Assembly (NCBI GenBank): GCA_049324415.1
Contig: JBMOOS010000030.1
Span: 205,523-269,522, forward strand
Direction: 5' to 3'
DNA length: 64,000 nucleotides
From: Pseudomonadota bacterium
Lineage (GTDB): Bacteria > Pseudomonadota > Alphaproteobacteria > Sphingomonadales > CAKZYD01
The translations under genes were made by a program, and so were the position numbers. Below, in pieces: positions 14,461-51,237 of the stretch. Numbering within the stretch: the stretch's first letter is position 1; each line of letters opens with the position of its first letter. Below the pieces are notes generated by a model. It saw only the letters and a list, made by a program, of their open reading frames with translations, was not told where the DNA came from and did no database searches.

Positions 14461-14476
14461 TGGCGAATAACCAACT

Positions 14477-14532
14477 CTAATGGTGCGATTCCAACGGATG
14501 GATTTATCCGTTTGGGAAAAGTGGACCACTAG
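14477..14532. mobile_element. 56-bp palindromic MITE-like element (chimeric copy)
   Basis: Sequence CTAATGGTGCGATTCCAACGGATGGATTTATCCGTTTGGGAAAAGTGGACCACTAG. The left end matches the B-type terminus and the right end the A-type terminus of the elements at 35612-35849. It is bounded by CTAA and CTAG. Confidence 0.8.
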
Positions 14533-15892
14533 CCGTGCCTGCCTTATCCTGGATCTCGGGAGGGAGGCCGGCGCGTTCAAGCGCCTGGCTTTGGCGCGTT
14601 CGCAGGGTATCGGCGGCAAAGCCGGCGATGATCTCCTCGAACAGGCGGTGCCAGTTGACCCGCGCTTGCAGGCGCGCGAACACCCCGCCAAGGCCGATGG
14701 CGGCCCGGTCCATGAAGACGAATTCGCGCGGCGGGGTGATGGGGCCCAGCGCCTGCAGCCGGCGCCGCACCTTCATCGCCTGCTCCCGGCCGTAAAGCCC
14801 AAGCTTGTCGGTGGCGGCGATGAGGCGCGGGCGGTCTTCGAGGAGCGGCCCGTAAAGGAATGCCGCCCAGATGTTGAGGGTCTCGATCAGCGGCTTTGAC
14901 AGCTTCCTGAAGCCCCAGGTCTCGTAGGCGTGAACCGCCAGCGCCGCGTCATTGTCGCGCAAAGCGTGGTAAAGGTCGATGACGCCGCCGACGAATGCCG
15001 GGGCGAAGATGCGCACGCAGCCGAAATCGAGAAGGTTGAGGCTGAAGTCATCGGCCAGCGTGTAGTTGCCCAGATGCGGGTCGCCGTGGATGACGCCGAA
15101 ATGGTGAAAAGGCACATACCAGGCGCGAAAAAGCGTGGCGGCGATGTGGTTGCGCGTCGCTTCATCGGCGGCAGATAGGCTAAGCAAGGGCCGGCCTTCC
15201 AGCCAGGTCATGGTAAGAAGACGGTTAGTGCTTAAGGAAGGCAGCGGCTCCGGGACATGGATGTGCGGCGTCTCCGCCAGCATATGACGGTACAGCGCCA
15301 TATGCTTAGCTTCCAAGGCATAATCCAGTTCCTCGCGCAGCCGGGCGGCGATTTCGGCGGCGACCTCGCGGGTGTCGATGGACGGGTCGTGGCGCCGAAA
15401 GAGGCCGAGCACGAGGCCCAGCTGACGCAAGTCCGCCTCGATGACCGAGGCCATGTCGGGATATTGCAGCTTGACGGCAAGGTCCGCGCCTTCCAGGCTC
15501 CGCGCCCTGTGAACCTGGCCCAGCGAGGCGGCGGCGGCGGCGCTGTGCTCGAAATAAGCAAAGCGGGCTTGCCAATCGGGGCCCAATTCAGCGCCCATGC
15601 GCCGTTTGACGAAGGGCCATCCCATGGCTGGCGCCTGGGCCTGCAATTGCGTAAATTCCCGGGCATAGTCGGCGGGCAGGGCGTCGGGAATGGTGGCAAG
15701 AAGCTGCGCCACCTTCATCGCCGGGCCCTTAAGCCCCCCCAAAGCCGCCCGCAAATCGGCGGCCAGCGCCGCGTCGGAGCGGCGCCGACCCAAAAGCTGC
15801 CCGCCAGCGGCGCGCGCGGCGATGCCGCCCAGAGCGCCAGCCAGGCCGGCATAGCGGCGCATGCGGCCCGCCAAACGGTTTTCCTCGTCCAC
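14504..15892 (-). CDS. ABC1/UbiB-family atypical protein kinase
   Basis: 462-aa ORF with ABC1 motifs (GPAMKVAQLLATIPDALP, ASLGQVHRA, AVKLQYPD, HGDPHLGN, LLDFG). The last 9 codons (ASGPLFPNG) and the TAA stop lie inside the palindromic element. Confidence 0.85.
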   Translation of the reverse strand: MDEENRLAGRMRRYAGLAGALGGIAARAAGGQLLGRRRSDAALAADLRAALGGLKGPAMKVAQLLATIPDALPADYAREFTQLQAQAPAMGWPFVKRRMGAELGPDWQARFAYFEHSAAAAASLGQVHRARSLEGADLAVKLQYPDMASVIEADLRQLGLVLGLFRRHDPSIDTREVAAEIAARLREELDYALEAKHMALYRHMLAETPHIHVPEPLPSLSTNRLLTMTWLEGRPLLSLSAADEATRNHIAATLFRAWYVPFHHFGVIHGDPHLGNYTLADDFSLNLLDFGCVRIFAPAFVGGVIDLYHALRDNDAALAVHAYETWGFRKLSKPLIETLNIWAAFLYGPLLEDRPRLIAATDKLGLYGREQAMKVRRRLQALGPITPPREFVFMDRAAIGLGGVFARLQARVNWHRLFEEIIAGFAADTLRTRQSQALERAGLPPEIQDKAGTASGPLFPNG

Positions 15893-24407: not shown

Positions 24408-24431
24408 GGGGGTTTTCCTTAAAGATGCCAC

Positions 24432-25784: not shown

Positions 25785-27067
25785 CACAAGCGGTCCTTCA
25801 AGCCGTAATAGAGCATGCCAAGAATAAAGCCCGGGGCGCGCAACAAGGTGCCCCCGGGAAAGCGCGGCGTCGGCAACGCCGACAAGACATCGAACCGTTC
25901 CGCGGTTCCGGCCACCGCCTCGGCGATCAGCTTGCCGGCCATGGTCGCCATCGCGACGCCATGGCCGGAATAACCATGGGCGAACAGAATATGGGGGGCG
26001 AGGCGGCCGAAGTGCGGCATCCTCTTCACCGTCACCGCGAGGGTGCCGCCCCAGCCATAGTCGATGCGCGTGCCCTTAAGCTGGGGGAAAACCCGCAGCA
26101 TGACGGGGCGGACGAAGTCGATGATATCGCGGCGAAGCTGGCGGCGATAGCTTTCGCCGCCGCCGAAAAGGAGGCGCTTGTCGGCGCTGAGGCGGAAATA
26201 GTCGATGATGAACTTGGTGTCGGCGACCGCCACGTCGTTGGGGATGAGGGCATGGGCGCGGGCCTCGCCCAAGGGCTCGGTGGCGATGATGTAATTGTGG
26301 ATCGGCATGATATGGCCGGCGATCCATGGCTCGAGGCCTTCGAGATAGGCGTTGCCGGCAAGCACCACATAGTCGGCCTTGACCTGGCCGGAGAGGGTGC
26401 GCACCGTCGCCGGCGCCGCCCGGTCATAGCTATGCGCCCGGGAGCGTTCGTAAATCCGCACGCCCAGCGCTTGCGCCGCCCGGGCAAGGCCGAGGGCGAA
26501 ATTCAACGGGTGAAGATGCGCCGCGCCCTCATCCAGCCAACCGCCGTGATAGACCTCGCTGCCGATATGGTCGGCAAGCTCTTCCCGGCGCAACGGCGTC
26601 ACCGCGTCATAACCATAGTCGCGGGCAAGCTTTTCCGCCATCGCAAAGCACCAGGGGACGAGCGCGGGCTTGTGGGCGACATGCAGGATGCCCGGCTTCA
26701 AGTCGCAAGGAATTTGGTGCCGCTCAATGAGGCTTTTCACCGTCGCCTTGGCGTCCTCGGCGATGTCCCACAACTGGTGGGCGATAGTCTTGCCATAGCG
26801 CGCTTCGAGGGCCTCCTGGTCCTTGCGCTGGCCGCTTCCCACCTGGCCGCCATTGCGCCCCGAGGCGCCCCAGCCGATGCGCTTGGCCTCGAGGACGACC
26901 ACCTCATAGCCCCGCTCGGCGAGATGAAGCGCGGCGGAAAGCCCGGTATAGCCGGCGCCGATGACGCAGATATCGGCGCGCGCCTCGCCTTCTAGGCGCG
27001 GCTGGCTCTCAAGGCCGATGGCGCTCGACACATAATAGCTGTCGGGATGGCCGCCGTCGGGCTGCAT
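25784..27067 (-). CDS. puuB: FAD-dependent oxidoreductase (gamma-glutamylputrescine oxidase PuuB/PauB-like)
   Basis: DAO-family protein with dinucleotide fold ICVIGAGYTGLSAALHLAERG. Embedded in the polyamine cluster. Confidence 0.8.
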   Translation of the reverse strand: MQPDGGHPDSYYVSSAIGLESQPRLEGEARADICVIGAGYTGLSAALHLAERGYEVVVLEAKRIGWGASGRNGGQVGSGQRKDQEALEARYGKTIAHQLWDIAEDAKATVKSLIERHQIPCDLKPGILHVAHKPALVPWCFAMAEKLARDYGYDAVTPLRREELADHIGSEVYHGGWLDEGAAHLHPLNFALGLARAAQALGVRIYERSRAHSYDRAAPATVRTLSGQVKADYVVLAGNAYLEGLEPWIAGHIMPIHNYIIATEPLGEARAHALIPNDVAVADTKFIIDYFRLSADKRLLFGGGESYRRQLRRDIIDFVRPVMLRVFPQLKGTRIDYGWGGTLAVTVKRMPHFGRLAPHILFAHGYSGHGVAMATMAGKLIAEAVAGTAERFDVLSALPTPRFPGGTLLRAPGFILGMLYYGLKDRL

Positions 27068-32529: not shown

Positions 32530-33924
32530 TCAGACGTTGAGCATGAGAAACTGCGTCTCCCAGGGCGAGAGCACGCTGTAATATTCGGAATATTCGCGGC
32601 GCTTCACGTCAACGAAGGCTCTTAAAAAACCCTCGCCCAGCACCGGGATCAGCTCCTCGGTGGCTTCCAGCGCGTCGAGCGCCGCTAGGTAGTGCTGTGG
32701 CAGGGTCTTGGATTTGAGGCCATAGGCCGATTTGCGCAAGGGCCTTGAGGGGCGCAGGTCCTCCACCATCCCGAGATAGCCGCAGGCCAGCGACGCGGCG
32801 ATGGCGAGATAGGGGTTGACGTCGGAGCCGGCGACCCGGTTCTCGACCCGCCGGTTGGCGGGGGCGCTGAAGGGCACGCGCAAGCCGACGGTGCGGTTTT
32901 CCCGCCCCCAATGGGTGTTGACCGGGGCCGACATGCCGCCGCCGATGCGCCGGTAAGAGTTCATATAAGGGGCAAGGAACGGCATCACCGCCGGCAGATA
33001 GCGCTGCAGGCCGGCGATATGGGAAAGAAACACATCGGTGTCCTCGCCCTGGTCATTGGCGAAGATGTTTTTCCCGGTCTCCAGATCCTCCACCGACTGG
33101 TGGATATGCATCGCCGAGCCGAAATTATGCGGATAGGGCTTGGCCATGAAGGAGGCGAACATGTTGTGCCGGATCGCCGCCTGGCGGACGACGCGCTTGA
33201 AATAGAAGGACTGGTTGGCGACCGCCAAGGGCTCGCCATGGTTGACGTTGAATTCGAACTGGGCGGGGCCTGCCTCGTGGATGAGGGTGTCGATCTGGAT
33301 CTTCTGGGTTTCGCAGAAATCGTAGATGTCGTCGAACAACACGCCATATTCGTCGACGCCGTCGATGGAAAAGGAATCGGTGCCCATCTCGGTCTTGCCG
33401 GAGCGACCCTTGGGTGCGATCGGCGGGGCATGCACGTCGGCCTGGCGGGCGATCAGGTAGAATTCGAACTCGGGCGCCACCACTGGCTTCCAGCCGCGCT
33501 TTTCATAGAGCGATAGAACATTGCACAGCACCTGGCGCGGCGCCAGCGCGACCGGCTTGCCGGTTTCATAATAGGCGTCGCAAATGACGCAGGCGGTGGG
33601 CTCGGACTGCCAGGGCACCAGCACCAGGGTATCCAGATCGGGCAACAGGAACACATCCTGCTCGGTGACCGACATGGCCCCCGACAGCACGAACTCGCCA
33701 TTGACCGTCATCGCGAAGATCGATTCCGGCAAGCGCAGGCCCCGGGTGCGCATGCCTTCGATGAATTTCGCCCGTGGCATCGCCTTGCCGCGGCCTATGC
33801 CAGCGAAATCGGCGACCATCAATTCCACATCGTCCACCTGACGCGCTTCCAGCCAGCGGTCTAGCTCGGCCACCTTGTCGTCGCTGATGGTCGGCACGAT
33901 GGGGGTCTTTTTGGGCTTGCTCAT
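32530..33924 (-). CDS. glutamine synthetase family protein (PuuA/SpuB-like), paralog 3
   Basis: GS catalytic domain (GSAMHIHQSVED, NRTVGLRVP). ATG 33924 overlaps the puuD stop (ATGA). Confidence 0.85.
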   Translation of the reverse strand: MSKPKKTPIVPTISDDKVAELDRWLEARQVDDVELMVADFAGIGRGKAMPRAKFIEGMRTRGLRLPESIFAMTVNGEFVLSGAMSVTEQDVFLLPDLDTLVLVPWQSEPTACVICDAYYETGKPVALAPRQVLCNVLSLYEKRGWKPVVAPEFEFYLIARQADVHAPPIAPKGRSGKTEMGTDSFSIDGVDEYGVLFDDIYDFCETQKIQIDTLIHEAGPAQFEFNVNHGEPLAVANQSFYFKRVVRQAAIRHNMFASFMAKPYPHNFGSAMHIHQSVEDLETGKNIFANDQGEDTDVFLSHIAGLQRYLPAVMPFLAPYMNSYRRIGGGMSAPVNTHWGRENRTVGLRVPFSAPANRRVENRVAGSDVNPYLAIAASLACGYLGMVEDLRPSRPLRKSAYGLKSKTLPQHYLAALDALEATEELIPVLGEGFLRAFVDVKRREYSEYYSVLSPWETQFLMLNV

Positions 33925-34676
33925 GATCGTCTTTCTCGCTGCCGGCGCTGGGTGGCGGCGCCAAAGGCCTCGAACAAAAGCCGATGGTGCGCCGTTTGCG
34001 AGGGCCGCCATTCAGGATGCCATTGCACGCCAAGGGCAAAGCTGGCGGCGTCCTGAACCGCCGCCGCCTCGATGGTGCCGTCCTCGGCTTGTGCTTCGAT
34101 GCGCAGGCGCGGCGCCAGCCGGTCGATGCCTTGGCCGTGCAGCGAATTGACGGTGACCTGATCGGTGGCGAAAAGCGTCGCCAACTGTCCGCCAGGGCTT
34201 AGGGAAACGCGGTGCGCGGGGCCATATTGCGCGTCGAGTGGGGCGTCGTTCTGCTCCCGGTGGTCGAAGCGGCCGGGCACTTCCCAAAGATGGGGATGGA
34301 GGGTGCCGCCCAAGGCGACATTGAGCTCCTGAAAACCCCGGCAGATGCACAGCAGGGGAAGCCCCTGCGCCAGCGCCGCGTCGATGAGGGGCAGGGCGGT
34401 GGCGTCGCGCTGGGTGTCGAGCAGCGTTTCCGCGCGCGGCGGCGCGCCGCCATAGCGCGCCGGGTGAACGTTGGACAGGGCGCCGGTCATCATCACCCCG
34501 TCTATGCCCGCGATGAGGTCGGCAAGGTCGAGGGGCGCATCGAGGACGGGAACGAGCAGGGGCATGGCGCCCGCCGCGTCGCGCACCGCGGCGATGTATT
34601 TCTCGCCGGCGGCGTGGAACAGGTGCTTGCCGATTTTCTGGGCGTCGCAAATGACGGCGACAACAGGCCGCGACAC
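33921..34676 (-). CDS. puuD: gamma-glutamyl-gamma-aminobutyrate hydrolase (PuuD/SpuA, peptidase C26)
   Basis: Class-I glutamine-amidotransferase-like fold. Nucleophile motif LLCICRGFQELN and the QWHPE motif. Confidence 0.85.
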   Translation of the reverse strand: MSRPVVAVICDAQKIGKHLFHAAGEKYIAAVRDAAGAMPLLVPVLDAPLDLADLIAGIDGVMMTGALSNVHPARYGGAPPRAETLLDTQRDATALPLIDAALAQGLPLLCICRGFQELNVALGGTLHPHLWEVPGRFDHREQNDAPLDAQYGPAHRVSLSPGGQLATLFATDQVTVNSLHGQGIDRLAPRLRIEAQAEDGTIEAAAVQDAASFALGVQWHPEWRPSQTAHHRLLFEAFGAATQRRQRERRS

Positions 34677-34811: not shown

Positions 34812-35360
34812 TTAGAAAGGCGGCGTGCAGGCGGAAACCAGGGTGCAAGGCTCATCGCCGACATTGCGGAAGCGATGAGGGGTTGTCGATTTGAAATAAT
34901 AGGCCTCGCCCGGGCCCAGGATGCGCCGCTTGTCGCCGACCAGGATTTCCACCCGCCCGGCGATGATGAAGCCGCACTCCTCGCCGTCGTGGACGAGCGG
35001 CACCGGGCCCGTTCCCGCTCCCGGCGCATAGGATTCGTAAAGGATTTGAATCAGCCGGTTATCGGCGTTGCGCCCAGGCTGCAGGAAATGAACGGGGCCG
35101 CGCCCCAGGTCCACCATGTCCTCCTTGCTGAAGAAAATCTGCTGATCTTCGTGGGGCGGGGTCGCGAAGAAATCGGCGACCGACATGCCGACCCCGTCGA
35201 GGATCTTGACGAGCAGTCCCAAGGTGGGGTCGCTGCGGCCTTGCTCGATGAGGGAAATGGTGCCGTTGGAAACCCCGGCGAGGCGGGCGAGCTCGCGCTG
35301 GGACAGGCCGCGCTCCAGGCGCAGGGCGCGCAGGCGTTGAGCGACGTCGGTCATGGTCAT
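34812..35360 (-). CDS. puuR: XRE-HTH + cupin transcriptional regulator (PuuR-like)
   Basis: 182 aa starting at ATG 35360. N-terminal HTH LRLERGLSQRELARLAGVSNGTISLIEQGR and a C-terminal cupin domain. The ORF-track start at 35642 is an unsupported extension. Confidence 0.8.
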   Translation of the reverse strand: MTMTDVAQRLRALRLERGLSQRELARLAGVSNGTISLIEQGRSDPTLGLLVKILDGVGMSVADFFATPPHEDQQIFFSKEDMVDLGRGPVHFLQPGRNADNRLIQILYESYAPGAGTGPVPLVHDGEECGFIIAGRVEILVGDKRRILGPGEAYYFKSTTPHRFRNVGDEPCTLVSACTPPF

Positions 35361-35387
35361 CTCGTTCAGGTGTTTGATATAATAAAC

Positions 35388-35401
35388 ATTGTGGCGACAA
35401 T
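35388..35401. promoter_or_regulatory. candidate operator palindrome upstream of puuR
   Basis: ATTGT-GGCG-ACAAT inverted repeat inside the AT-rich stretch GTTTGATATAATAAACATTGTGGCGACAATATCG. It lies 28 nt upstream of the puuR start, in the divergent region toward the receptor gene. Confidence 0.25.
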
Positions 35402-35557
35402 ATCGTGCAAAGTCAATGCCTTGAGCCGAAGCGCAAATCATTTGAAAAATCAGGCGGTTGCAATAGGCTAAAGGAGCTGGGGCAGCCATCTGGGGGCACA
35501 GTGAAAGGATGAAGCAGCGCCTTGGCAAAAGGCGCCGGCAACAGGGGGAGAGCGCGG

Positions 35558-38140
35558 ATGAGCCAGGGGGCCAAGGCACGATTGAAGCATGCGGCGCGGG
35601 GCATGACCGCGCTAGTGGTCCACCCCGAACGGATGGATCCATCCGTTCGGGAAAAGTGGACCACTAAGTTATTGAATCTGTGGTGCGATTTCTCCAACAG
35701 ATGGAAACCATCCGTTGGAATCGCACCACTAGTGGTCCACCCCGAACGGATGGATCCATCCGTTCGGGAAAAGTGGACCACTAAGTTATTGAATCTGTGG
35801 TGCGGTTTCTCCAACAGATGGAAACCATCCGTTGGAATCGCACCACTAGCCGTGGTGATGGCGGCGGCGCCCATGGCCGCGGCACAGGAAACGGCGTCAA
35901 TCGAGGAAATCGTGGTGACGGCGCAAAACCGGGCCCAGTCGATCCAGGACGTGCCCATCGCCATCACCGCCTATGACGAAGATTTCATCCGCCGCACCAA
36001 GCTCGATGACGTCAAGGACGTGATCGATTTCACCCCCGGCTTTTCCGGCAAGTCGAAGGACAGCTTTGTCGACCAGTTCGCGGTGCGCGGCATTTCCACC
36101 AATGATTTCGGGGTTGGCGGCGACCCTTCGATCGGCATTTTCAAGGACGGCGTCTATCAGGGGCGCACCGGCGCCGCGATCACCAGCTTTTTCGATATCG
36201 AGCGCACCGAGGCCTTGCGCGGCCCCCAGGGTTTCTTGTTCGGCCGCAACGCGATTTCCGGCGCCATCAGCGTCATCACCAACAAGCCCAACCCCGACAA
36301 GGTCGAGGGCACGGTGCATATCGGCGGCGGCGAGCGTGGCTTGATCGAGGGCGACGCCGCCGTCAACCTGCCGCTCGGCAGCCAGTGGGCGGTGCGGGCG
36401 GCGGGCTATTTCTACCGCGAGAACGGCTATGTGGACAATGCCTTCAACCTCACCGATCCCGACCTTTTGAGCGCGCGCAAATATGCCGGGCGCCTGTCCT
36501 TGGGCTATCGCGGCGACCGGCTTTCGGCGCTCTTCGTCGTAGAATATGAACGGCGCTATCAGTCGGGAAGCATCTATCGCGCGCTGCCAGACGATGAATC
36601 GCTCGCCTTTTTCGGGGCGACCATGCGGGGCGATGGGCGCGACGCCGACAGCGACCTGCGCACGGGCGACAAGGACGACGGCGATATCTTGTCCTTCACC
36701 GCGCAATTGGATTGGGATTTGGACTGGGCGACTCTCACCTCGCTCACCGGCGTGCGCACCCATGACTATAGCTACGCCGAGGATTTCGACGGCTCGCCGC
36801 TCCAGATCAACAATTATTTCCAGGACCAGAGCGGCGACTATTACAGCCAGGAATTCCGTCTCGTGTCCAATGGCGAGGGGCCCTTGAACTGGTTCGCCGG
36901 CGTCTCCGGCTATAAGGAAAATATCGACGCCTCCTTCGCCCAGCAGGGCAACGAGGACCTCATGTGCCTGGCTTTTCTCGAAGTCACCTGCGCCGAGGAA
37001 TATCCCGGCTTCACGCCGCGGCCGGAGGGTCTTTTCGAGACCAACGACGCGCGCGGCCGCTACAAGGGGTTCGCCGCCTTCGCCGACGTCACCTACGCGC
37101 TGACCGAGCGTTTCGAAATCAACGCCGGCGTGCGCTATACCTATGACGAAAAGACCTTTGGCTTGCGGATCAATGAAGTCACCAGCGAGCTCGGTCCCTT
37201 TTTCGTCTTCGGCTACATCACCGATGGCTTCGTCGAGGAAACGCGCAACTGGGACGATGTGACGCCGCGCTTCACCGCCCGCTACAAGCTGACCGACGAT
37301 TGGTCGCTTTGGGGGTCGGTCACGCGCGGCTACAAGGCGGGCGGCTTCGGCACTTTCTCCCTCGACCTGCCGACCCCCGAGCAGCTTGGCTTCACCCCGG
37401 AGGAGATCCAGGCCTGCATCGACGAGGAGCTGGGCATCTTCTGCGTCATCAACGAGGACGGCACGGTGCCCGCAGGCACGACGCCGTCCGCCTTCAACCC
37501 GGAAAAGGTGTGGTCCTATGAAGCCGGCGCCAAGGGCTATCTCGCCGACCGCCGGGTGCAGCTCGACGTCAACGCCTTTTATTACCGCTATCGCGACTTG
37601 CAGATCACCTATTTCGACGACGTCCTCCTCAACACGCTGGTGGAAAATGTCGGCAGGGTGAAGGGCTATGGCCTTGAAGGCACGTTGCGCGCCCAGCCGA
37701 CCGAAAACTGGGACTTTTTGGCCGGCGCCTCCTGGATCGACACCAAGGTCGCCAACGTGCCGGACAGGATTTGCGAGGCGTGCGACGGCAACCGCCTCAA
37801 CCGCCAGCCCAAATGGGTGCTTTCCGGCCTCATCGCCTATCATCATCCGCTGGGCGAGGGCGAGGTGACGCTGCAAGGCGAGGCGCGCTATCAAAGCCGC
37901 TTCTTCGGCAGTCTGGACAACGAGCGGCGGATCTCGGTCGCGCCTTATGCCGATGTCGGCTTTCGCGTCGGCTACCGCTCGCCCGCGGGGTGGGAGCTCG
38001 CCGGCTATGTGGATAACGCCTTCAACAAGCTTTATTACGATGGCGTCAACGACAATGACTTGCCGATCCCCGACCATGTCTTCGGGCCGTCGCGTCCGCG
38101 CACCTTCGGCCTTGACTTCATCTGGTATTTCGGCCGCTAG
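35558..38140 (+). CDS. TonB-dependent receptor whose signal-peptide region is interrupted in frame by 2 x 117-bp palindromic elements
   Basis: ATG 35558 sits behind GGGGGAGAG. Plug motifs IEEIVVTAQNRAQSIQDVPIAITAY and ALRGPQGFLFGRNAISGAI, followed by a long beta-barrel region. Codons 19-96 are element-derived, and the TAG stop lies in the CTAG of another element. Functional status is uncertain. Confidence 0.8.
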   Translation: MSQGAKARLKHAARGMTALVVHPERMDPSVREKWTTKLLNLWCDFSNRWKPSVGIAPLVVHPERMDPSVREKWTTKLLNLWCGFSNRWKPSVGIAPLAVVMAAAPMAAAQETASIEEIVVTAQNRAQSIQDVPIAITAYDEDFIRRTKLDDVKDVIDFTPGFSGKSKDSFVDQFAVRGISTNDFGVGGDPSIGIFKDGVYQGRTGAAITSFFDIERTEALRGPQGFLFGRNAISGAISVITNKPNPDKVEGTVHIGGGERGLIEGDAAVNLPLGSQWAVRAAGYFYRENGYVDNAFNLTDPDLLSARKYAGRLSLGYRGDRLSALFVVEYERRYQSGSIYRALPDDESLAFFGATMRGDGRDADSDLRTGDKDDGDILSFTAQLDWDLDWATLTSLTGVRTHDYSYAEDFDGSPLQINNYFQDQSGDYYSQEFRLVSNGEGPLNWFAGVSGYKENIDASFAQQGNEDLMCLAFLEVTCAEEYPGFTPRPEGLFETNDARGRYKGFAAFADVTYALTERFEINAGVRYTYDEKTFGLRINEVTSELGPFFVFGYITDGFVEETRNWDDVTPRFTARYKLTDDWSLWGSVTRGYKAGGFGTFSLDLPTPEQLGFTPEEIQACIDEELGIFCVINEDGTVPAGTTPSAFNPEKVWSYEAGAKGYLADRRVQLDVNAFYYRYRDLQITYFDDVLLNTLVENVGRVKGYGLEGTLRAQPTENWDFLAGASWIDTKVANVPDRICEACDGNRLNRQPKWVLSGLIAYHHPLGEGEVTLQGEARYQSRFFGSLDNERRISVAPYADVGFRVGYRSPAGWELAGYVDNAFNKLYYDGVNDNDLPIPDHVFGPSRPRTFGLDFIWYFGR
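35612..35849. mobile_element. tandem pair of 117-bp composite palindromic (MITE-like) elements
   Basis: Units 35612-35728 and 35729-35845 differ at a single base (35688 A versus 35805 G). CTAG occurs at 35612, 35729 and 35846. Each unit contains hairpin A (with a perfect 28-bp palindrome CCCGAACGGATGGATCCATCCGTTCGGG) and hairpin B (GTGGTGCGATT...AATCGCACCAC). Confidence 0.9.
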
Positions 38141-38192
38141 TGGTCCACTTTTCCCAAACGGATGGATTTATCCGTTTGGGGCGGACCACTAG
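38137..38192. mobile_element. 56-bp palindromic MITE-like element (solo hairpin-A type, inverted orientation)
   Basis: Sequence CTAGTGGTCCACTTTTCCCAAACGGATGGATTTATCCGTTTGGGGCGGACCACTAG. It is bounded by CTAG on both sides and overlaps the receptor stop codon. Confidence 0.85.
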
Positions 38193-38223
38193 GGTCAGGA
38201 CCACTTAATTTCAGGGTGTCACG

Positions 38224-39966
38224 GTGATGTTGCGCCACATGTGGCGATGCTTGCTTGGCCTTGTCGCGCTGGCCGTCATGGCCGCTTGCGCCGCTCCGCC
38301 TCGCCCTGCCGACATGGTGTTCTGGGGCGGCGCGGTCCATGCCATGGACGCGGCCCGCACCGTGGCCGAGGCGGTGGCGATAAGGGACGGCGTCATCATT
38401 TACGTCGGTGCGCGCAAGGGGGCGGCGCTTCTCGTCGGCCCGGCGACGCGCATCGTCGACATGGCGGGCGGGGCGCTGTTTCCCGGCTTCACCGACGCCC
38501 ATGTCCACATGAGCGACGGCGGCGCGCAGCTCGCGATGCTGTCGCTGGGGCAAGCGACGACGCCGCAGCAGGTGCAGGCGCTGCTCGCCGCCTACGCCAA
38601 GGCGCATCCAATGCTCGACGTCATCGTCGGCGCTGGCTGGGAGCTTTCGATCTTTCCCAACGCCCATCCGTCGAAGGACCTCATCGATGCCGTGGTTCCC
38701 GACCGGCCGGTCGTCCTTTACGCCGCCGATGGGCATAACGCCTGGGTGAACAGCACGGCCCTCGCCCGCGCGGGCATCGACAAGGCGACACCCGATCCCG
38801 CCAACGGCCGGATCGAGCGCGAGGCGACCACTGGCGCGCCCACCGGCGTCTTGCGCGAGGCCGCGCAAGCGCTTCTCGCCCCGCTCATTCCGAAGCCCAG
38901 CCTTGATGAGCAGGTGGCATATCTGCGCCAGGGCATGGCCTATGAAAACGCTTATGGCTACACCGCGGCGATCGAGGCGTCGGTTCCCGCCGGCCTTATC
39001 GAGGAAGCTTATGCCGCGGCGGCGAAGGCGGGTGTTTTAAGCTTGCGCATCGCCCTCTCGCTAACCCCGGGCGAAGCGCTTCTCGACACGGCGGTGCGCC
39101 GCGAAACGATGGCGGCGGCCGTCGCCGCCCTTGCCGCCCGGCGCCAGGCGATCGCCGCCCAGGGCTTTGCCTATCTTACAGCGCCGGCAGTCAAGATCTT
39201 CGTCGATGGCGTCATGGAGAACCACACCGCCGCCTTGCTCGCCCCTTATATCGGCAGCATGCTGGGGATGGCGCATCGCGGCGACCTCATGATGCCGGAG
39301 GCCGTGCTCAAGGATTATGTGACGGCGCTCGACGCGGCGGGCTTTCAAGTGCATTTCCACGCCATCGGCGACCGCGCGGTGCGCGTCGCCCTCGATGCCG
39401 TGGAACAGGCGCGGATGGTGAATGACGGAGGGGCGCGCCGGCATCATCTTTCCCATCTGGAGCTTATCGACCCGGCTGACCTTCCCCGCTTTGCCGCCCT
39501 TGGCGCCTACGCCAATGTGCAAGCCTTGTGGGCCTATGCCGACGGCTATATCACCGACTTGACCGAGCCTTATCTCGGCCCGGCGCGCGCCCGCTGGCTT
39601 TATCCCATCGGCTCGCTGGAAAGGGCGGGGGCACGGCTGGCCATGGGCTCCGACTGGCCGGTCTCCAGCGCCAATCCCCTGGCCGCCATCGAGGTGGCGG
39701 TCAGGCGGCAAGACTGGCGTAAGGACGGCGATGACGCCTGGCATCCAGAGGAGCGGGCGAGCCTCGATGCGATGCTCGCCGCGCTCACCATCGGCGGCGC
39801 GCGGCTGATGGGCGAGGAAGCGCTGCGCGGCACCCTCGAAGCGGGCAAGGCCGCCGATCTCACCCTCCTCGACCGCGATCCCTACAAGGTCCGTGTGGAG
39901 GCGCTTTCCGAGATTGCCGCGCGCATGACCGTGCTCGCCGGCAAGCCGGTCTACGAGAGGCCGTGA
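38224..39966 (+). CDS. amidohydrolase-family metal-dependent hydrolase (Amidohydro_3/YtcJ-like), probable lipoprotein
   Basis: Lipoprotein-type N-terminus LLGLVALAVMAAC. Metal-ligand motifs FPGFTDAHVHM, HFHAIGD and GSDWPV. The start is GTG 38224 or ATG 38227. Confidence 0.8.
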   Translation: MMLRHMWRCLLGLVALAVMAACAAPPRPADMVFWGGAVHAMDAARTVAEAVAIRDGVIIYVGARKGAALLVGPATRIVDMAGGALFPGFTDAHVHMSDGGAQLAMLSLGQATTPQQVQALLAAYAKAHPMLDVIVGAGWELSIFPNAHPSKDLIDAVVPDRPVVLYAADGHNAWVNSTALARAGIDKATPDPANGRIEREATTGAPTGVLREAAQALLAPLIPKPSLDEQVAYLRQGMAYENAYGYTAAIEASVPAGLIEEAYAAAAKAGVLSLRIALSLTPGEALLDTAVRRETMAAAVAALAARRQAIAAQGFAYLTAPAVKIFVDGVMENHTAALLAPYIGSMLGMAHRGDLMMPEAVLKDYVTALDAAGFQVHFHAIGDRAVRVALDAVEQARMVNDGGARRHHLSHLELIDPADLPRFAALGAYANVQALWAYADGYITDLTEPYLGPARARWLYPIGSLERAGARLAMGSDWPVSSANPLAAIEVAVRRQDWRKDGDDAWHPEERASLDAMLAALTIGGARLMGEEALRGTLEAGKAADLTLLDRDPYKVRVEALSEIAARMTVLAGKPVYERP

Positions 39967-43786: not shown

Positions 43787-43879
43787 GGAGAGGTGGCCGA
43801 GTGGTCGAAGGCGGCGGTTTGCTAAACCGTTATAGGGGGATAACCCCTATCGAGGGTTCGAATCCCTTCCTCTCCGCCA
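43787..43879 (+). tRNA. tRNA-Ser (anticodon GCU)
   Basis: Manually folded. Acceptor stem GGAGAGG/CCTCTCC, anticodon stem-loop GCGGT-TTGCTAA-ACCGT, long variable arm TAGGGGGATAACCCCTA, T-arm GAGGGTTCGAATCCCTT, and an encoded CCA. Confidence 0.9.
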
Positions 43880-43886: not shown

Positions 43887-44470
43887 TTATTTATTCTTTT
43901 TATTCAATGAGTTACTAGCATTTTTGTCTAGCCAGCTTATCAGGTTAGACACTTCCGCCGCTGTTTCGGCGCCGCCAAGAGCTGCCATGGACTTCGCCAC
44001 CAGTAGTTCCTGACTTGCAGCGGCCGTGTAGCACGCGGCCTCCTTACTGGTCTTGTGTCCAGTCACCGACATGATTTCCTTTTCGGTATAGCCGGCTTCG
44101 GCCATGCGCCGCGCCGCGGCCTTGCGCAGGCCGTGCGCGCTACACTGCGCCAGCCCGCGGCCTCGTTGCACCGCTCGCGCATCCAGTTGCCGAAGCCGTT
44201 GCCCGTGAAGGGCATGCCGAACGCTGTAACCAGAAAGGTCATGTTCTCCTTGGGCGTTGCCGCCAACACTTCGATGAGCTTGAGATGGATCGGAATGGCA
44301 AGACGGGTCTTGGTTTTATGCTGGCGCACCTTAATCGTATTGCCAGAAATATGCTGCCAGCCGATGGTGACCATGTCGCTGCGCCGTTGGCCGGTGTAGA
44401 GCATGAGAGCAAAAGCTTGGAAACGGGCACCGTCTGCCTTATCGCATATCCTTCTGTTCATTAGTGGCAT
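43887..44470 (-). pseudogene. tyrosine recombinase/phage integrase, N-terminally truncated and frameshifted
   Basis: ORF 44063..44470 encodes the R-box region (LMLYTGQRRSD...KTKTRLAIPIH...FGNWMRERCNEA). ORF 43887..44171, in another frame, continues with HGLRKAAARRMAEAGYTEKEIMSVTGHKTSKEAACYT, which holds the H-x-x-R and catalytic Tyr boxes. The frameshift is near 44150, and no N-terminal arm-binding domain is present. Confidence 0.8.
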
Positions 44471-44595
44471 CCCGCTTAATCTCCTCTACCCTGCTTTTCG
44501 GACCAACCTCGATGTCACATCCTTATGGACTGCTTAAGGTTTATGGTCTAAAGCGGACGATAAATTGTGACGCGTCCTTGTTGCTTTGGAGAATC

Positions 44596-44937
44596 ATGGG
44601 TCGGATTGCCGCCATAGTCGCCGCCTTTGCGTTGCTGTCGATCCAGTTCGTGCATGCCGCAGTCCTGGATGGCGTGGCGACACATGCTCATGCACCCATG
44701 ATCGATCACAGTGATGACCATGATGGTCAACACCTTGACAATCTAAACGGTGATATGGGCGGTGATGACCTGGCATCGTTGCACAAGTCGCTGCACGACC
44801 AAAATAGCACCACTTTTATAATCCTTGGATTTGTGGCATCGTTTGCCAATATGGCGAGCGGCAAGAAATTGCCGTGGCACGGCGCTTTTGCGCGCGGTCT
44901 TGCCCACTCGCCACCCGTTCCCCCTCCTCTATTCTAA
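44596..44937 (+). CDS. small secreted His/Asp-rich protein upstream of czcC (possible metal-binding accessory protein, CzcI-like by position)
   Basis: ATG 44596 sits behind GGAG. Signal peptide MGRIAAIVAAFALLSIQFVHA, then THAHAPMIDHSDDHDGQHLDNLNGDMGGDD. No family was recognised. Confidence 0.45.
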   Translation: MGRIAAIVAAFALLSIQFVHAAVLDGVATHAHAPMIDHSDDHDGQHLDNLNGDMGGDDLASLHKSLHDQNSTTFIILGFVASFANMASGKKLPWHGAFARGLAHSPPVPPPLF

Positions 44938-44961
44938 TCTCTCGTAAGTCCATTGCCGTGA

Positions 44962-44985
44962 ACGGCGCGGGGTTTTCCGCGCCGT
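44962..44985 (+). terminator. stem-loop between the small ORF and czcC (possible attenuator)
   Basis: A 9-bp stem, ACGGCGCGG / CCGCGCCGT, with loop GGTTTT. There is no downstream T-tract. Confidence 0.2.
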
Positions 44986-45019
44986 CGACAGGCTCATTTC
45001 TTTAATCGAGAGACGAGGC

Positions 45020-46302
45020 ATGAATTTTATAGGTGCCGCGCAATTTATTGCGCTGACGCTGATGCTTCTGGTTCCAGAGGCGAGCGCTCAAGACGACATT
45101 CAATCCAATGCCGCTATCGTGACGATGGAGGATGCCATCGCCCGGGTTCTCAATGCCGCGCCCATGATAGAGGCAAGCAAAGAGGCGGTTCACGCCAGCG
45201 AGGGGGTGCTGCGCCAAGCGCGGGTGAGGCCCAACCCCGAGCTTTCATGGGAAGCCGCCGACATCATTGGTTCCGGTCCTTTCGAAGGCATTGACCGCGC
45301 TGAGATTACGCTGGGCATCGAGCAGCGGATAGAACGCGGCGGCAAACGCAACGCACGGATCGGTCTTGCTGCGGCCGATCGCGATCTTTCCGCGCTTTCA
45401 GCGGTGGCTACACACGCCGATGCCATTTATCTGACGCGCCAGGCTTATATTGATGCGGCAGCGGCTCTCGCCACCATGCGCAACGCCGCCCTTCGCGTTG
45501 AAGTGACGCGGGCCCTAGCGACCGAGGTCAAACAACGCGTGCAAAGCGCGCGCGATTCACTGGCGGCGGCGGAGCGCGCCGAGACCCGCGCCCTTGAAGC
45601 CGAGATGGCGCTAGCCCAGGCAGACCAGGCCTTTAGCCTTGCCAAAAAACGGCTGGCTGGCCTGTGGGGGGCAATCACCGATGATTTCGCCATCGATACA
45701 ACGCTGCTCTTTGCCGTGCATCCTGTCGATGAAGCGGGATTGACCGCTCGGCGGGAGGCGGCGCTGGATCTTACGATCGCCAAGACGAGGATGGAACGGG
45801 CGACTGCCGCGCTAACCCTTGAGCAGGCCAACGCCAAACAAGACCCTAGAATAAAACTGGGCGTACGCCGATTCCAGCTATCGGATGACATCGCTGGCGT
45901 TGTTTCCTTTTCCATGCCGCTTGCCCTGTTCAACACCAACCGGGGCAACATCGCCCGCGCCGCGGCTGAACAACGGCAAGCAGAATGGCTGGCGCGCGAA
46001 GTCAAGCAACGCTTCGACCGGGATTTTGCCAGCTATGTTACAGCCTTACGGGCCGCTTTTGATGAAGCCATGGCCTATCGCAGCAAGATCCTTCCCACGG
46101 CGCAAGCCGCGCTTCAAGAAACCCGCCATGGCTATGGGCGCGGCGCTTTTTCTTATTTGGAGGTGTTGGACGCCCAGCGCGCCCTTCAGGACATAAGCGC
46201 GCGTGAGATTCTAGCGCTCAAGCGATTTCATCTGGCCAACGCCGCCCTTGAGCGGTTGCTTGCATCATCAAGTGGCACGTTTCCAGACCAGGAGAATACC
46301 CA

Positions 46303-46306
<4 letters not shown>
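45020..46306 (+). CDS. czcC: heavy-metal efflux outer membrane factor (CzcC/TolC family)
   Basis: 428 aa with a signal peptide and two TolC-like repeats. The stop overlaps the czcB start (ATGA). Confidence 0.8.
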
Positions 46307-50762
<4,456 letters not shown>

Positions 50763-50772
50763 AAATTTCTTT

Positions 50773-50982
50773 CTAAATTTCCGCAAGGTTGTCAGGCAAA
50801 ACCTGCATAGGGTGACAAATTTCTATCTTATGAGCACTTTCACCTTCTCTCCCGTGGGCGCGATCGATGCCGATATGGGTCTTGGTGCCGAAGGCCGGGA
50901 TGGAGGTCAGCTGCGGCTTCGCCGCCGGCCCGTCGATCAAACCGGGCCCCCGGAACTTCGCACCAGTTCGCAGCAATAGCAC
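50773..50982 (-). pseudogene. IS5-family transposase fragment
   Basis: The 69-aa ORF contains AFGTKTHIGIDRAHG, resembling the FG(Y/M)K.HI.VD first-Asp region of DDE_Tnp_1 (IS5) transposases. It is truncated on both sides. Confidence 0.45.
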
Positions 50983-50992
50983 GTAACTACCC

Positions 50993-51027
50993 GGAGAGGG
51001 TTAGAACCCGGGTCTTTCCCTCCGCCA
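50993..51027 (+). repeat. degenerate copy of the tRNA-Ser acceptor/T-arm (putative island attR remnant)
   Basis: Sequence GGAGAGGGTTAGAACCCGGGTCTTTCCCTCCGCCA. Compared with the tRNA (GGAGAGG...GAGGGTTCGAATCCCTTCCTCTCCGCCA), it shares the 5' acceptor heptamer, the GAGGGTT..GAA..CCC segment and the CTCCGCCA end. Confidence 0.45.
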
Positions 51028-51205
51028 TAAATGTCATGTAATATATTGATATTATTTATGTTTTATACGTGTCTCCGAGATTGGCCCCACTTTCTATTCC
51101 ACTTTTGACCGGGTCTTGAGCGAGATTCAGCCGACGGCCAAAAAGTTTTTTCTGGCGGTTTATTGCTTGTGCAGCCCCGCATCGTTACCCCGCCGAGATA
51201 TGGGA

Positions 51206-51237
51206 CCCCGGCCCCCACCCCCACCCCCTCCCCCTCC
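51206..51237 (-). repeat. G5-tract hexanucleotide repeat / canonical G-quadruplex motif
   Basis: The minus strand reads GGAGGGGGAGGGGGTGGGGGTGGGGGCCGGGG, with four G5 runs separated by single-nt loops. It lies about 55 nt downstream of the nuclease stop codon. Confidence 0.8.

What the first reader, a model, noticed from the sequence alone, without database searches (positions are those of the whole stretch)
38137..38192. CTAG-bounded 56-bp hairpin element on the receptor stop codon; the TA/CTAG signature suggests a MITE family mobilised by an IS630/Tc1-mariner-type transposase
Seen in sequence: the element is CTAGTGGTCCAC-TTTT-CCCAAACGGAT-GGATTT-ATCCGTTTGGG-GCGGACCACTAG. It belongs to the same family as hairpin A at 35612 but is in the opposite orientation. 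The receptor TAG stop (38138-38140) is the TAG of the left CTAG. At every locus in the window (14477/14532, 35612/35729/35846, 38137/38192), removing the GTGG...CCAC core plus one TA rebuilds a CTAG. The pattern is therefore C-TA-[element]-TA-G, with one left junction mutated to CTAA. Established knowledge: IS630-family transposases insert at 5'-CTAG-3' and duplicate the central TA. Inference: these are non-autonomous elements mobilised in trans; no candidate transposase is present in this window. All three loci found in 64 kb abut or enter coding sequence. A perfect hairpin right after a stop codon could also act as a terminator or an mRNA stabiliser. Side note: this receptor ends ...IWYFGR rather than on the aromatic residue usual for the barrel C-terminal signal, whereas the second receptor ends ...KKTF.
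Basis: partly seen in the sequence, partly recalled or inferred. Interest (0 to 1): 0.6.

Follow-up and report, generated by a model that had tools for sequence, protein, structure and literature searches.

The report
CTAG-flanked palindromic mobile repeat family
The 56-base hairpin on the receptor's stop codon is a real copy of a small, non-coding mobile repeat family that always sits at CTAG sites and whose 117-base two-hairpin form is found inserted in frame inside several ordinary protein genes; which transposase moves it is still unknown.

Summary
Window 38137-38192 is a CTAG-to-CTAG hairpin (-35.6 kcal/mol, z -8), and its left TAG is the stop codon of a TonB-dependent receptor. It belongs with five other hairpins at 14477 and 35612-35849.

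The tools added several things:
- The 35612 locus is two tandem 117-nt units (hairpin A, 13-nt spacer, inverted hairpin B). They lie in frame inside the receptor's signal-peptide codons.
- Four more units sit on other contigs of the same MAG. Three are in-frame 38-39-aa insertions in a VOC protein, ZapE and a bacteriohemerythrin.
- Diverged units of the same length occur in an unrelated metagenome organism and, as a 4.1-copy array, in Nitratireductor soli. Compensatory changes keep both hairpins.
- CTAG is depleted in the window, and about one site in five is a C+TAG stop codon. This explains the position without invoking function.

The IS630 attribution is not established. IS5-family elements also use CTAG/YTAR, a palindromic CTAG cannot separate a TA from a CTAG duplication, and no transposase lies in the window. 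The hairpin has no U-tract, so it is not a canonical terminator. The ...FGR tail is normal for this receptor subfamily.

Verdict: a new family of a known kind (MITE/RPE-like), of moderate interest.

The parts
38137..38192 (-). The finding: a solo A-type hairpin element (50-nt core 38140-38189, GTGG...CCAC) between two CTAGs. By the position of its 4-nt bulge it is in minus orientation relative to the A hairpins at 35612.
   Evidence: I1/I2, 91% complementary; MFE -35.6/-38.1, z -8/-12; nhmmer 60.9 bits on the minus strand
38138..38140 (+). TAG stop codon of the TonB-dependent receptor. It is the TA+G of the left CTAG junction and lies inside the hairpin stem.
   Evidence: homologue C-termini place the native stop here (FGR* against FGK*/FGG*/FGD*)
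35558..38140 (+). TonB-dependent receptor gene (Plug + beta-barrel). The original start is ATG 35558, preceded by GGGGGAGAG. The gene carries the 234-nt element insertion in its signal-peptide codons and the solo hairpin on its stop codon.
   Evidence: (P0001 100% identical, annotated from MAAAQE)
35612..35732 (+). Composite unit 1 (121 nt CTAG-to-CTAG, period 117). It consists of hairpin A (35615-35664), TA plus an 11-nt linker (35665-35679; the 13-nt unpaired spacer of the fold is 35667-35679), and inverted hairpin B (35680-35729).
   Evidence: (D3)
35729..35849 (+). Composite unit 2. It shares its left CTAG with unit 1 and is 99% identical to it (one A/G difference). The two units together add 234 nt (78 codons) in frame.
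   Evidence: (D3)
14477..14532 (+). Solo chimeric element with a B-type left arm (ATGGTGCGATT...) and an A-type right arm (...GGGAAAAGTGGACCAC). Junctions are CTAA and CTAG. It lies between convergent genes and supplies the last 8 codons and the TAA stop of the ABC1-kinase ORF.
   Evidence: D4, I3, I5; MFE -19.7, z -4.2
14504..15892 (-). ABC1/UbiB-type kinase gene. Its 3' end (...TASGPLFPNG*) runs into the 14477 element.
38224..39966 (+). Amidohydrolase gene 32-35 nt downstream of the hairpin on the same strand. It is the likely downstream cistron affected by the stem-loop.
   Evidence: synteny in L019

Best explanation
The hairpin at 38137-38192 is a solo copy of a non-autonomous palindromic mobile-repeat family (MITE-like).

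Family anatomy (shown):
- The basic module is a 50-nt hairpin, GTGGTCC/GTGGTGCGA ... ACCAC, with one 3-6-nt bulge that gives it polarity.
- The conserved unit is a 115-nt doublet: hairpin A, a 13-nt spacer, and hairpin B in inverted polarity.
- Every copy lies between C-TA and TA-G.

Placement (shown to be consistent, inferred as the cause): the copy landed in the C+TAG formed by the last Arg codon and the TAG stop of the receptor. Such stop-codon CTAGs make up about a fifth of the few CTAG sites this genome retains. Its position is therefore a consequence of target choice, not of selection for a terminator.

Junction logic (shown): the element starts with G and ends with C, so each insertion turns one CTAG into two. 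This offers a simple route to the tandem arrays that share a CTAG.

Frame (shown): doublet plus duplication is 117 nt (39 codons), with two of the four possible in-gene registers free of stops. Doublets survive as in-frame peptide insertions in genes. Solo hairpins add 52 nt and, in this small sample, are seen only at gene ends.

Inferred steps:
- Mobilisation is in trans by a transposase that cuts next to TA in CTAG. The family of that enzyme is unresolved: IS630/Tc1-mariner, an IS5-family element, or less likely an HUH enzyme.
- In the receptor mRNA the hairpin acts, at most, as a 3' stem-loop. It could slow 3' exonucleases or hinder termination and read-through into the amidohydrolase gene. 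It is not an intrinsic terminator.
For: Repeat family and hairpins:
- Repeats and folds.
- Dispersed copies in the same MAG on four other contigs: P0121, P0122, P0123 and P0127. Their accessions MFZ5608010-5609826 fall in one block.

Secondary insertion:
- Removing 234 nt restores a canonical signal peptide, MSQGAKARLKHAARGMTALAVVMAAAPMAAA|QE, in frame.
- Pfam domains span the inserts.
- P0121 aligns to PDB 3rri on both sides of the insert, and QLVCHL is conserved.
- The syntenic locus of a relative has no element at the receptor start or stop.

Family beyond this genome:
- An exhaustive phmmer search found diverged 39-aa units.
- The DNA shows units of exactly 121 nt in L020 and L022 (ENA ERZ27249683) and 4.1 tandem units in Nitratireductor soli.
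- Two-hairpin folds are kept by compensatory changes: 6 pairs changed on both sides, z -7 to -13.

Target availability: CTAG occurs 36 times against 80.5 expected. Seven of about 33 original sites are stop codons and only 4 are intergenic.

Other points:
- No U-tract follows the hairpin.
- No Rfam family matches.
- No transposase lies in the window.
Against: - No empty-site allele from a close relative was available, so mobility is inferred from dispersion and frame logic rather than from polymorphism.
- The total copy number in the source genome is unknown. The genome is not in genome contigs or in the contig index.
- Three of the four protein-level copies (P0121-P0123) were found by searching proteins, so the high share of in-frame copies is biased by how they were found.
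- CTAG is its own reverse complement and forms the base of the stem. It could be part of the element rather than the target.
- The N. soli array has CTGG at every junction.
- The left side of hairpin B inside the doublet is TCT, not TA.
Confidence: 0.8

Rival explanations
1. One reading: the elements are MITEs mobilised specifically by an IS630/Tc1-mariner-type DDE transposase. It inserts at the TA of CTAG and duplicates that TA.
For: - All junctions can be read as C-TA-[G...C]-TA-G.
- IS630 prefers TA in CTAG, and IS630/ISY100 duplicate TA (PMC2170065 and the Tenzen & Ohtsubo references cited there).
- Inside the doublet, hairpin A is followed by TA and then A or C, not G, in two lineages. 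This fits a 2-bp rather than a 4-bp repeat.
Against: - No IS630-family gene or matching full-length IS was seen, and the rest of the genome could not be searched.
- The same junctions are produced by IS5-family elements (PMC2266754, PMC3189936).
- The termini show no tested similarity to any IS630-family inverted repeat.
Confidence: 0.3
2. The elements are MITEs derived from an IS5-family element. Either the IS427/IS711 type, which duplicates the TA of YTAR, or the IS5 type, which duplicates the 4-nt CTAG/YTAR, would fit.
For: - The observed junction tetranucleotides CTAG and CTAA both fit YTAR.
- IS711 of alphaproteobacterial Brucella duplicates TA in YTAR and prefers the palindromic Bru-RS repeats (PMC2266754).
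- MITEPsy1 (IS5?) duplicates CTAG/YTAA (PMC3189936).
- The B-type arm GTGGTGCGATT shares the heptamer GGTGCGA with the IS5 inverted repeat GGAAGGTGCGAATAAG at a 2-nt offset from the end (IR sequence verified).
Against: - The heptamer match is weak: my rough estimate, not computed with a tool, is a chance probability of about 0.01-0.05 after allowing for offsets.
- No IS5-family gene lies in the window.
- A 4-nt duplication would require a mutation at the CTAA junctions.
Confidence: 0.25
3. The elements are REP/BIME- or REPIN-like. In this reading they are hairpins recognised as single-stranded DNA by an HUH (RAYT or IS200/IS605-type) enzyme and inserted next to CTAG without a true duplication. 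Doublets of inversely oriented hairpins would be amplified in tandem, as in BIME-2.
For: - Each end of the doublet is its own hairpin, maintained by compensatory change across lineages.
- A and B have inverted polarity.
- Tandem arrays of the two-hairpin unit occur: 2 copies here and 4.1 copies in N. soli.
- An element that carries one CTAG and inserts 3' of a CTAG gives the same junctions and the same 117-nt net insertion.
Against: - The tag is CTAG at both ends and is part of the stem. It is not the one-sided GTAG/CGTC tag of REP super-families (PMC3733652).
- The copies lie inside coding sequences, whereas REPs are extragenic by definition.
- The hairpins are flush with the ends, leaving no room for IS200/IS605-type guide sequences.
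- No Y1 transposase gene lies in the window.
Confidence: 0.15
4. The hairpin is kept at this place because it works for the host, as a transcription terminator or mRNA stabiliser between the receptor and amidohydrolase genes.
For: - The stem-loop is very stable and starts 1 nt before the stop codon.
- It lies between two co-oriented genes that are neighbours in a conserved cluster.
- From my own knowledge, REP-type hairpins can stabilise upstream mRNA and, when close to a stop codon, reduce translation.
Against: - No T-run follows the hairpin on either strand, and the scan finds no terminator there.
- The relative's locus has no hairpin after the receptor.
- The same sequence occurs inside coding regions, where it cannot be a terminator.
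- Stop-codon CTAGs are simply common targets.
Confidence: 0.1

Closest known systems
Rickettsia palindromic elements (RPEs)
   Same: Both are small palindromic repeats found inserted in frame in unrelated protein-coding genes, where they add a conserved peptide. The general point is in PMC10969869 and PMC3184786. Here the inserts are 38-39 aa in VOC, ZapE, bacteriohemerythrin, FGGY kinase and a receptor signal peptide.
   Different: - The hosts are free-living, GC-rich alphaproteobacteria, not Rickettsia.
- The unit is 117 nt rather than about 150 nt.
- The CTAG/TA junctions are sharp.
- The architecture is a two-hairpin doublet.
- Sequence relatedness to RPE families was not tested.
TA-duplicating bacterial MITEs (Correia/NEMIS of Neisseria, RUP of pneumococcus, ERIC-type elements)
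   Same: They are about 100-150 nt, have terminal inverted repeats and TA at both ends, and form hairpins in RNA. They occur at gene ends, and occasionally inside genes (PMC3184786).
   Different: - Here the minimal mobile-looking module is only 50 nt.
- The flanks are the full CTAG.
- Each terminus is itself a complete hairpin.
- No IHF site, promoter or RNase III site was shown.
IS630 and IS5-family (IS711, MITEPsy1) target behaviour
   Same: The target tetranucleotide is CTAG/YTAR, with duplication of TA or of all four bases (PMC2170065, PMC2266754, PMC3189936).
   Different: No cognate IS was identified. The similarity of the inverted repeats is limited to a GGTGCGA heptamer shared with IS5.
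REP/BIME-2 of E. coli and REPINs; RIME1/RIME2 of Rhizobium
   Same: These are mosaic units made of two inversely oriented palindromes, sometimes amplified in tandem. RIMEs were first described in the chvI-chvG region (Osteras et al. 1995, cited in PMC2573895). From my recollection of that paper, which I could not read, a RIME consists of two large palindromes. The N. soli array lies in the same gene cluster, between hprK and manX.
   Different: - The elements have no GTAG/CGTC tag and are not extragenic.
- A sequence comparison with RIMEs could not be made: the paper is not held, and three unit variants gave no blastn match in 72,556 plasmids.

Membership tests
Bacterial MITE (non-autonomous transposon derivative) | Terminal inverted repeats | tested here: met
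   Each 50-nt module is an inverted-repeat pair. By global alignment over the 25-nt halves, bulge included, arm identity is 0.72-0.84, and 0.64 for the chimeric copy. The outer arms of the doublet are 0.64-0.76 identical.
Bacterial MITE (non-autonomous transposon derivative) | Small size with no transposase gene | tested here: met
   The cores are 50 nt and 115 nt. The only reading frames are read-through peptides.
Bacterial MITE (non-autonomous transposon derivative) | Multiple dispersed copies in one genome | tested here: met
   There are three loci in the window and four more on other contigs of the same MAG. The total number is unknown.
Bacterial MITE (non-autonomous transposon derivative) | Target-site duplication flanking each copy | tested here: inconclusive
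   CTAG (or a one-base variant) is present at both ends of every copy. Frame reconstruction shows that one CTAG is native. Because CTAG is palindromic, a TA duplication, a CTAG duplication and an element-borne CTAG cannot be told apart.
Bacterial MITE (non-autonomous transposon derivative) | Presence/absence polymorphism between close relatives | tested here: inconclusive
   The elements are absent from the syntenic locus of a relative with 65% receptor identity, which is too distant to be decisive. They are present in a second sample of the same organism (L001 starts in the hairpin loop). No empty-site allele is in the protein database.
Bacterial MITE (non-autonomous transposon derivative) | Cognate autonomous IS with the same termini | not testable with these tools
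   There is none in the window. The source MAG is absent from genome contigs and from the contig index, and the plasmid search gave no match.
IS630/Tc1-mariner-mobilised MITE | Duplication of exactly TA at a TA (CTAG) target | tested here: inconclusive
   The data are compatible. Hairpin A inside the doublet is followed by TA+A or TA+C. The junctions are equally compatible with IS5-family behaviour (PMC2266754, PMC3189936).
IS630/Tc1-mariner-mobilised MITE | IS630-family transposase whose inverted repeats match the MITE ends | not testable with these tools
REP / BIME / REPIN (RAYT-associated) | Conserved one-sided GTAG or CGTC tag next to a 20-40-nt imperfect palindrome | tested here: not met
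   The tag is CTAG at both ends and is paired within the stem. The hairpins are 50 nt. The definition is from PMC3733652.
REP / BIME / REPIN (RAYT-associated) | Extragenic location | tested here: not met
   Copies lie inside the receptor signal-peptide codons and inside the VOC, ZapE, hemerythrin and FGGY genes.
REP / BIME / REPIN (RAYT-associated) | Pairs of inversely oriented units, amplifiable in tandem | tested here: met
   A and B have opposite bulge polarity. The arrays have 2 and 4.1 copies.
Rickettsia palindromic elements | In-frame insertion into protein-coding genes that adds a conserved peptide | tested here: met
   Frames +0 and -2 are open in all four lineages.
Rickettsia palindromic elements | Sequence homology to RPE-1 to RPE-10 and occurrence in Rickettsia | not tested
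   No RPE sequences were compared. The hosts here are a Rhodothalassiaceae/Emcibacter-like MAG, an unidentified metagenome organism and Nitratireductor soli.
Intrinsic (Rho-independent) terminator | GC-rich hairpin immediately followed by a U-tract | tested here: not met
   The hairpin is present. It is followed by GGTCAGGACCAC on the plus strand and by GCGGCCGAAATA on the minus strand. The scan of 35300-38400 reports no site there.
RIME (Rhizobium-specific intergenic mosaic elements) | Sequence match to the RIME1/RIME2 consensus | not tested
   The original paper is not held. Only the two-palindrome architecture, which I recall from that paper, and the chvG-hprK neighbourhood in N. soli resemble it.

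The most novel reading that the evidence does not exclude
The 117-nt doublet is a distinct, widely spread alphaproteobacterial class of frame-preserving selfish DNA. Its length of 39 codons, its two stop-free registers and its self-regenerating CTAG ends would have been shaped so that it can live inside protein-coding genes of free-living bacteria, as RPEs do in Rickettsia. It might sometimes donate start codons or signal-peptide n-regions, as suggested by P0127 and by the in-frame starts at 35750 and 35789. It would be moved by an enzyme that is neither IS630 nor IS5: either a hairpin-recognising HUH enzyme or an unknown one.
Probability: 0.2. Interest if true: 0.65.

Novelty: new member of a known kind. 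Interest (0 to 1): 0.4.

Why it matters
- Annotation. Pipelines mishandle these elements. The receptor is annotated without its signal peptide, two database 'hypothetical proteins' (P0124, and P0127 up to its fusion with flanking sequence) are read from element sequence, and short-read assemblies break in the hairpin.
- Biology. The family offers a tractable, free-living counterpart to the Rickettsia RPE puzzle: how palindromic selfish DNA enters conserved proteins in frame and is tolerated. It has a precise target (CTAG), a fixed unit length and diverged copies in a cultivable species, Nitratireductor soli.
- Placement. It shows how depletion of a target tetranucleotide funnels insertions onto stop codons and into coding sequence.
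- Open question. Identifying the mobilising transposase would settle whether CTAG-flanked mini-hairpins are moved by IS630-type, IS5-type or HUH-type enzymes.

Tried and rejected
Searches that found nothing useful:
- Genome-contig scan with the palindromic core AACGGATGGATNNATCCGTT gave 15 hits, about the number expected by chance. None of the seven I inspected has GTGG...CCAC flanks, and nhmmer gives only core-length partial matches in the rest. The window itself is not in that collection.
- Metagenome-contig scan with the right arm gave 2 unrelated low-GC contigs.
- Viral contigs gave 0 hits and 1 chance hit.
- blastn of three unit variants against 72,556 plasmids gave no match.
- Rfam at gathering and at E<=1 gave nothing but a meaningless miRNA hit.

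Contig look-ups:
- P0121, P0122, P0123 and P0127 are not on record, so the MAG's DNA outside the window is unreachable.
- The profile search with alignment A2 returned only P0127.

Ideas rejected:
- The hairpin as an intrinsic terminator: no T-run.
- The ...FGR tail as a defect of the barrel C-terminal signal: the subfamily normally ends W-x-F-G-x(0-3).
- A relic of another element in GGTCAGGACCACTTAA just after the hairpin: nhmmer gives nothing there.
- A strict REP/RAYT reading: the tag and the location tests are not met.

Comparison that could not be made: the sequences of RIME1/RIME2, because the paper is not held.


Full report
1. THE OBSERVATION

- As RNA it folds at -35.6 kcal/mol on the plus strand and -38.1 on the minus strand. 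Shuffles give about -12 to -13 (z -8 and -12).
- The receptor ORF (35522/35558..38140) ends with the TAG at 38138-38140, which is the TAG of the left CTAG.
- Repeat finding links the element to 35612-35666 and 35729-35783 (55 nt, 91% complementary) and to 14474-14533.
- GTGGWCCAC occurs 6 times against 0.13 expected, only in these elements.
- A family HMM finds exactly six hairpins at three loci in the 64 kb. It scores the 38137 copy better on the minus strand (60.9 against 49.3 bits), which confirms the opposite orientation. What differs is the arm that carries the 4-nt bulge.

2. ANATOMY OF THE FAMILY

The 35612 locus is more than 'hairpin A'. It is two tandem copies, 99% identical, of a 117-nt unit (D3). 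Each unit contains:
- hairpin A, GTGGTCCAC-CCCGAACGGATGG..CCATCCGTTCGGG-AAAA-GTGGACCAC;
- TA;
- an 11-nt linker, AGTTATTGAATCT (with the TA, the region between the hairpin cores is 15 nt; the fold leaves 13 nt unpaired);
- hairpin B, GTGGTGCGATT-TCT-CCAACAGATGG..CCATCCGTTGG-AATCGCACCAC.

A and B are homologous. A carries its bulge on the 3' arm and B on the 5' arm, so they are inverted relative to each other.

The copy at 14477 is a chimera with a B-type arm on the left and an A-type arm on the right. It folds less well (-19.7 kcal/mol, z -4.2). The copy at 38137 is a solo A-type hairpin.

3. THE ELEMENTS ARE SECONDARY INSERTIONS

a) The receptor signal peptide.
- The two tandem units (234 nt, 78 codons) lie in frame inside the receptor ORF.
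- Deleting them leaves one CTAG and gives MSQGAKARLKHAARGMTALAVVMAAAPMAAA|QETASIEEIVVTAQ. This has a textbook n-region, h-region and AxA cleavage site, like the N-termini of homologues.
- ATG 35558 has a GGGGGAGAG box upstream.
- NCBI's annotation (P0001, MFZ5609826.1, 755 aa) starts at MAAAQE and so has no signal peptide.

b) Other proteins of the same MAG.
- I searched 5.8 billion proteins with the element's translations and found three proteins of the same MAG on other contigs.
- The VOC protein P0121 reads ...QLVCH-L[VVRPKRINPSVWEKRTTKLLNLWCDFSNRWEPSVGIAP]L-APS...
- ZapE P0122 carries a 38-aa version, shortened by an in-frame 3-nt deletion.
- Bacteriohemerythrin P0123 carries the unit in the other orientation (SGAIPTDG...ERTT).
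- Pfam domains span the inserts.
- P0121 aligns to PDB 3rri_A on both sides of the insert, and the junction motif QLVCHL is conserved. The CTA (Leu) is therefore host sequence.
- The junction residues of all three proteins back-translate to CTAG at both ends.
- A fourth protein, P0127 (MFZ5608010.1), begins MNLWCDFSNRWEPSVGIAPL..., that is, at the TTG of the spacer.

c) A relative.
- The syntenic locus of a relative (Logan SRR23403438; receptor 65% identical) has no element at the receptor start or stop, and none in 14 kb.
- This relative is too distant to count as an empty-site allele.

d) A second sample of the same organism.
- A contig from SRR32167790 starts exactly in the loop of the 38137 hairpin.
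- The copy is therefore present in that sample as well, and assemblies break at it.

4. THE FAMILY OUTSIDE THIS GENOME

Exact-pattern scans of species-representative genomes, JGI metagenomes and viral contigs, and blastn against plasmids, found no member. Rfam has no such family.

An exhaustive phmmer search with the 39-aa unit against 1.84 billion representative proteins found four proteins. The DNA behind three of them could be read (the fourth, P0127, is not on record):
- L020, ENA ERZ27249683: an in-frame insertion in an FGGY_C kinase, with CTAG at both ends.
- L022, same metagenome: junctions CGAG and CTAG.
- L021, Nitratireductor soli GCA_001050155.1: 4.1 tandem units of period 117 between hprK and manX, with CTGG at all junctions.

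All units are exactly 121 nt from junction to junction and align without gaps. They are 50-90% identical, yet each folds into the same two hairpins with a bulge and an unpaired spacer (z -7 to -13). Six base pairs changed on both sides while staying paired. Frames +0 and -2 are free of stops in all four lineages.

The doublet is therefore an old, length-conserved unit. Its hairpins are maintained either by selection or by concerted evolution of the arms.

5. WHY IT SITS ON A STOP CODON

- CTAG is depleted in the window: 36 against 80.5 +/- 8.8 expected.
- Of about 33 pre-insertion CTAG sites, 7 are C+TAG stop codons of called genes, 4 are intergenic and the rest lie inside CDS.
- An element that needs CTAG will therefore usually land in a gene or on its end.
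- The element begins with G and ends with C, so every insertion converts one CTAG into two. This is a simple route to arrays that share a CTAG.
- Doublet plus duplication is 117 nt, which preserves the frame. A solo hairpin plus duplication is 52 nt, which does not. In the small sample available, solo copies are seen at gene ends and doublets inside genes.
- This last contrast rests partly on copies found through a protein search, which biases the sample.

6. MECHANISM AND THE MOBILISING ENZYME

What is shown:
- inverted-repeat modules;
- dispersed copies;
- a net insertion that leaves one CTAG;
- no coding capacity;
- no transposase among about 50 window ORFs.

What is inferred: mobilisation in trans.

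That signature is not unique:
- IS711, an IS5-family element of alphaproteobacteria, duplicates the TA of YTAR and favours the palindromic Bru-RS repeats (PMC2266754).
- MITEPsy1, linked to an IS5-family IS, duplicates the 4-nt CTAG/YTAA (PMC3189936).
- CTAG is palindromic. A 2-nt duplication, a 4-nt duplication and an element that carries one CTAG and inserts next to another (HUH-type) all give identical junctions, the same 117-nt period and the same frame arithmetic.

Small hints point in different directions:
- Inside the doublet, hairpin A is followed by TA+A (window) or TA+C (L020). This favours a 2-nt repeat.
- The left flank of hairpin B is TCT in all lineages, so the doublet is not simply two independent TA insertions.
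- The B arm shares GGTGCGA with the IS5 inverted repeat. This is weak evidence.
- The two-hairpin, inverted, tandem-amplifiable design recalls BIME-2 and REPINs. However, the REP tag and the extragenic location are not met (PMC3733652).

I therefore commit to a 'MITE-like element targeting CTAG' (confidence 0.8). I leave the enzyme open: IS630 about 0.3, IS5 family about 0.25, HUH about 0.15.

7. EFFECT AT THIS LOCUS

- No T-run follows the hairpin on either strand, and the scan reports no terminator there.
- The amidohydrolase gene starts 32-35 nt downstream on the same strand, and the two genes belong to a conserved cluster.
- The likeliest consequence, which is inferred, is a stable 3' stem-loop that begins 1 nt before the stop codon. 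It could protect the receptor mRNA from 3' exonucleases, impede the terminating ribosome, or dampen read-through.
- For the receptor itself, the 78-aa insert separates the n-region from the h-region.
- Translation from ATG 35558 would give a long N-terminal extension. In-frame starts inside unit 2 (ATG 35750, TTG 35789) would give K/R-containing N-termini ahead of the intact h-region and cleavage site.
- Whether the receptor is still exported is untested.

Homologues of this receptor end ...WRFGGQ...WRFGGER...WRFGGG...WKFGK...KFGG...KFGD and ...RFGK. IWYFGR is therefore the normal form: an aromatic terminal strand plus a short Gly-containing tail. It also confirms that the stop codon is in its native place.

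9. COMPARISON AND NOVELTY

The family behaves like a bacterial MITE with TA/CTAG junctions (Correia, RUP and ERIC types; PMC3184786). Like RPEs, it is able to persist in frame inside genes (PMC10969869). Its doublet architecture resembles BIME/REPIN and, from my recollection of an unread paper, RIME elements.

I found no sequence-level match to anything described, but RIME, Bru-RS and RPE consensus sequences could not be compared. I file it as a new family of a known kind, of moderate interest.

Noticed in passing
window 43787-43876, 44063-44470, 45020-50762 (GC dip over about 44000-56000): A tRNA gene is followed by a phage-integrase fragment and a lower-GC stretch (0.59 against 0.64). The stretch carries czcC/czcB/czcA-like RND efflux genes. 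It looks like the remnant of a genomic island integrated at the tRNA.
   Followed up: partly
window, all 36 CTAG sites: CTAG is about 2.2-fold depleted (36 against 80.5 expected). A fifth of the sites are C+TAG stop codons and only four are intergenic.
   Followed up: yes
window 35558-35875; protein P0001 (MFZ5609826.1): The public annotation starts the receptor at MAAAQE, downstream of the element insertion, so the annotated protein has no signal peptide. In-frame starts inside the element (ATG 35750, TTG 35789) could rebuild one.
   Followed up: partly
L021:9980-10453 (Nitratireductor soli LFVY01000009.1): There are 4.1 tandem copies of a diverged 117-nt unit between hprK and manX in the chvI-chvG-hprK-manX-ptsH cluster. 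Every junction reads CTGG instead of CTAG. The array is annotated as hypothetical protein WP_048647201.1.
   Followed up: partly
L001:1-26 (Logan SRR32167790), equivalent to window 38167-38192: A short-read contig of the same organism begins exactly in the loop of the hairpin. Assemblies break at these palindromes, which will hide copies in MAGs.
   Followed up: no
window 69-10561: A hopanoid biosynthesis cluster: two squalene/phytoene synthase-like genes, an amine-oxidase-like gene, squalene-hopene cyclase, a radical SAM protein with DUF3463, LytB/IspH and an MMPL transporter.
   Followed up: no
window 23046-24431, 24432-25787, 32530-34011: Three glutamine-synthetase-like paralogues (repeat families D1/D2, 76-86% DNA identity in patches). 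They lie in a cluster with an aminotransferase, an ABC transporter, an XRE-cupin regulator, the receptor, the amidohydrolase, SapC and an aldehyde dehydrogenase. The cluster is syntenic with L019 and is probably a polyamine-type catabolic locus.
   Followed up: no
IS5 inverted repeat against B-type arm (window 35680-35690, 14480-14490): The IS5 terminal repeat GGAAGGTGCGAATAAG and the arm GTGGTGCGATT share the heptamer GGTGCGA at a 2-nt offset from the end. This is a weak lead to an IS5-family parent.
   Followed up: partly
window 54058-56628: A second TonB-dependent receptor lies in the lower-GC part of the window, next to a ChrR-cupin anti-sigma-like gene and a LuxR-type regulator. It carries no element.
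   Followed up: no
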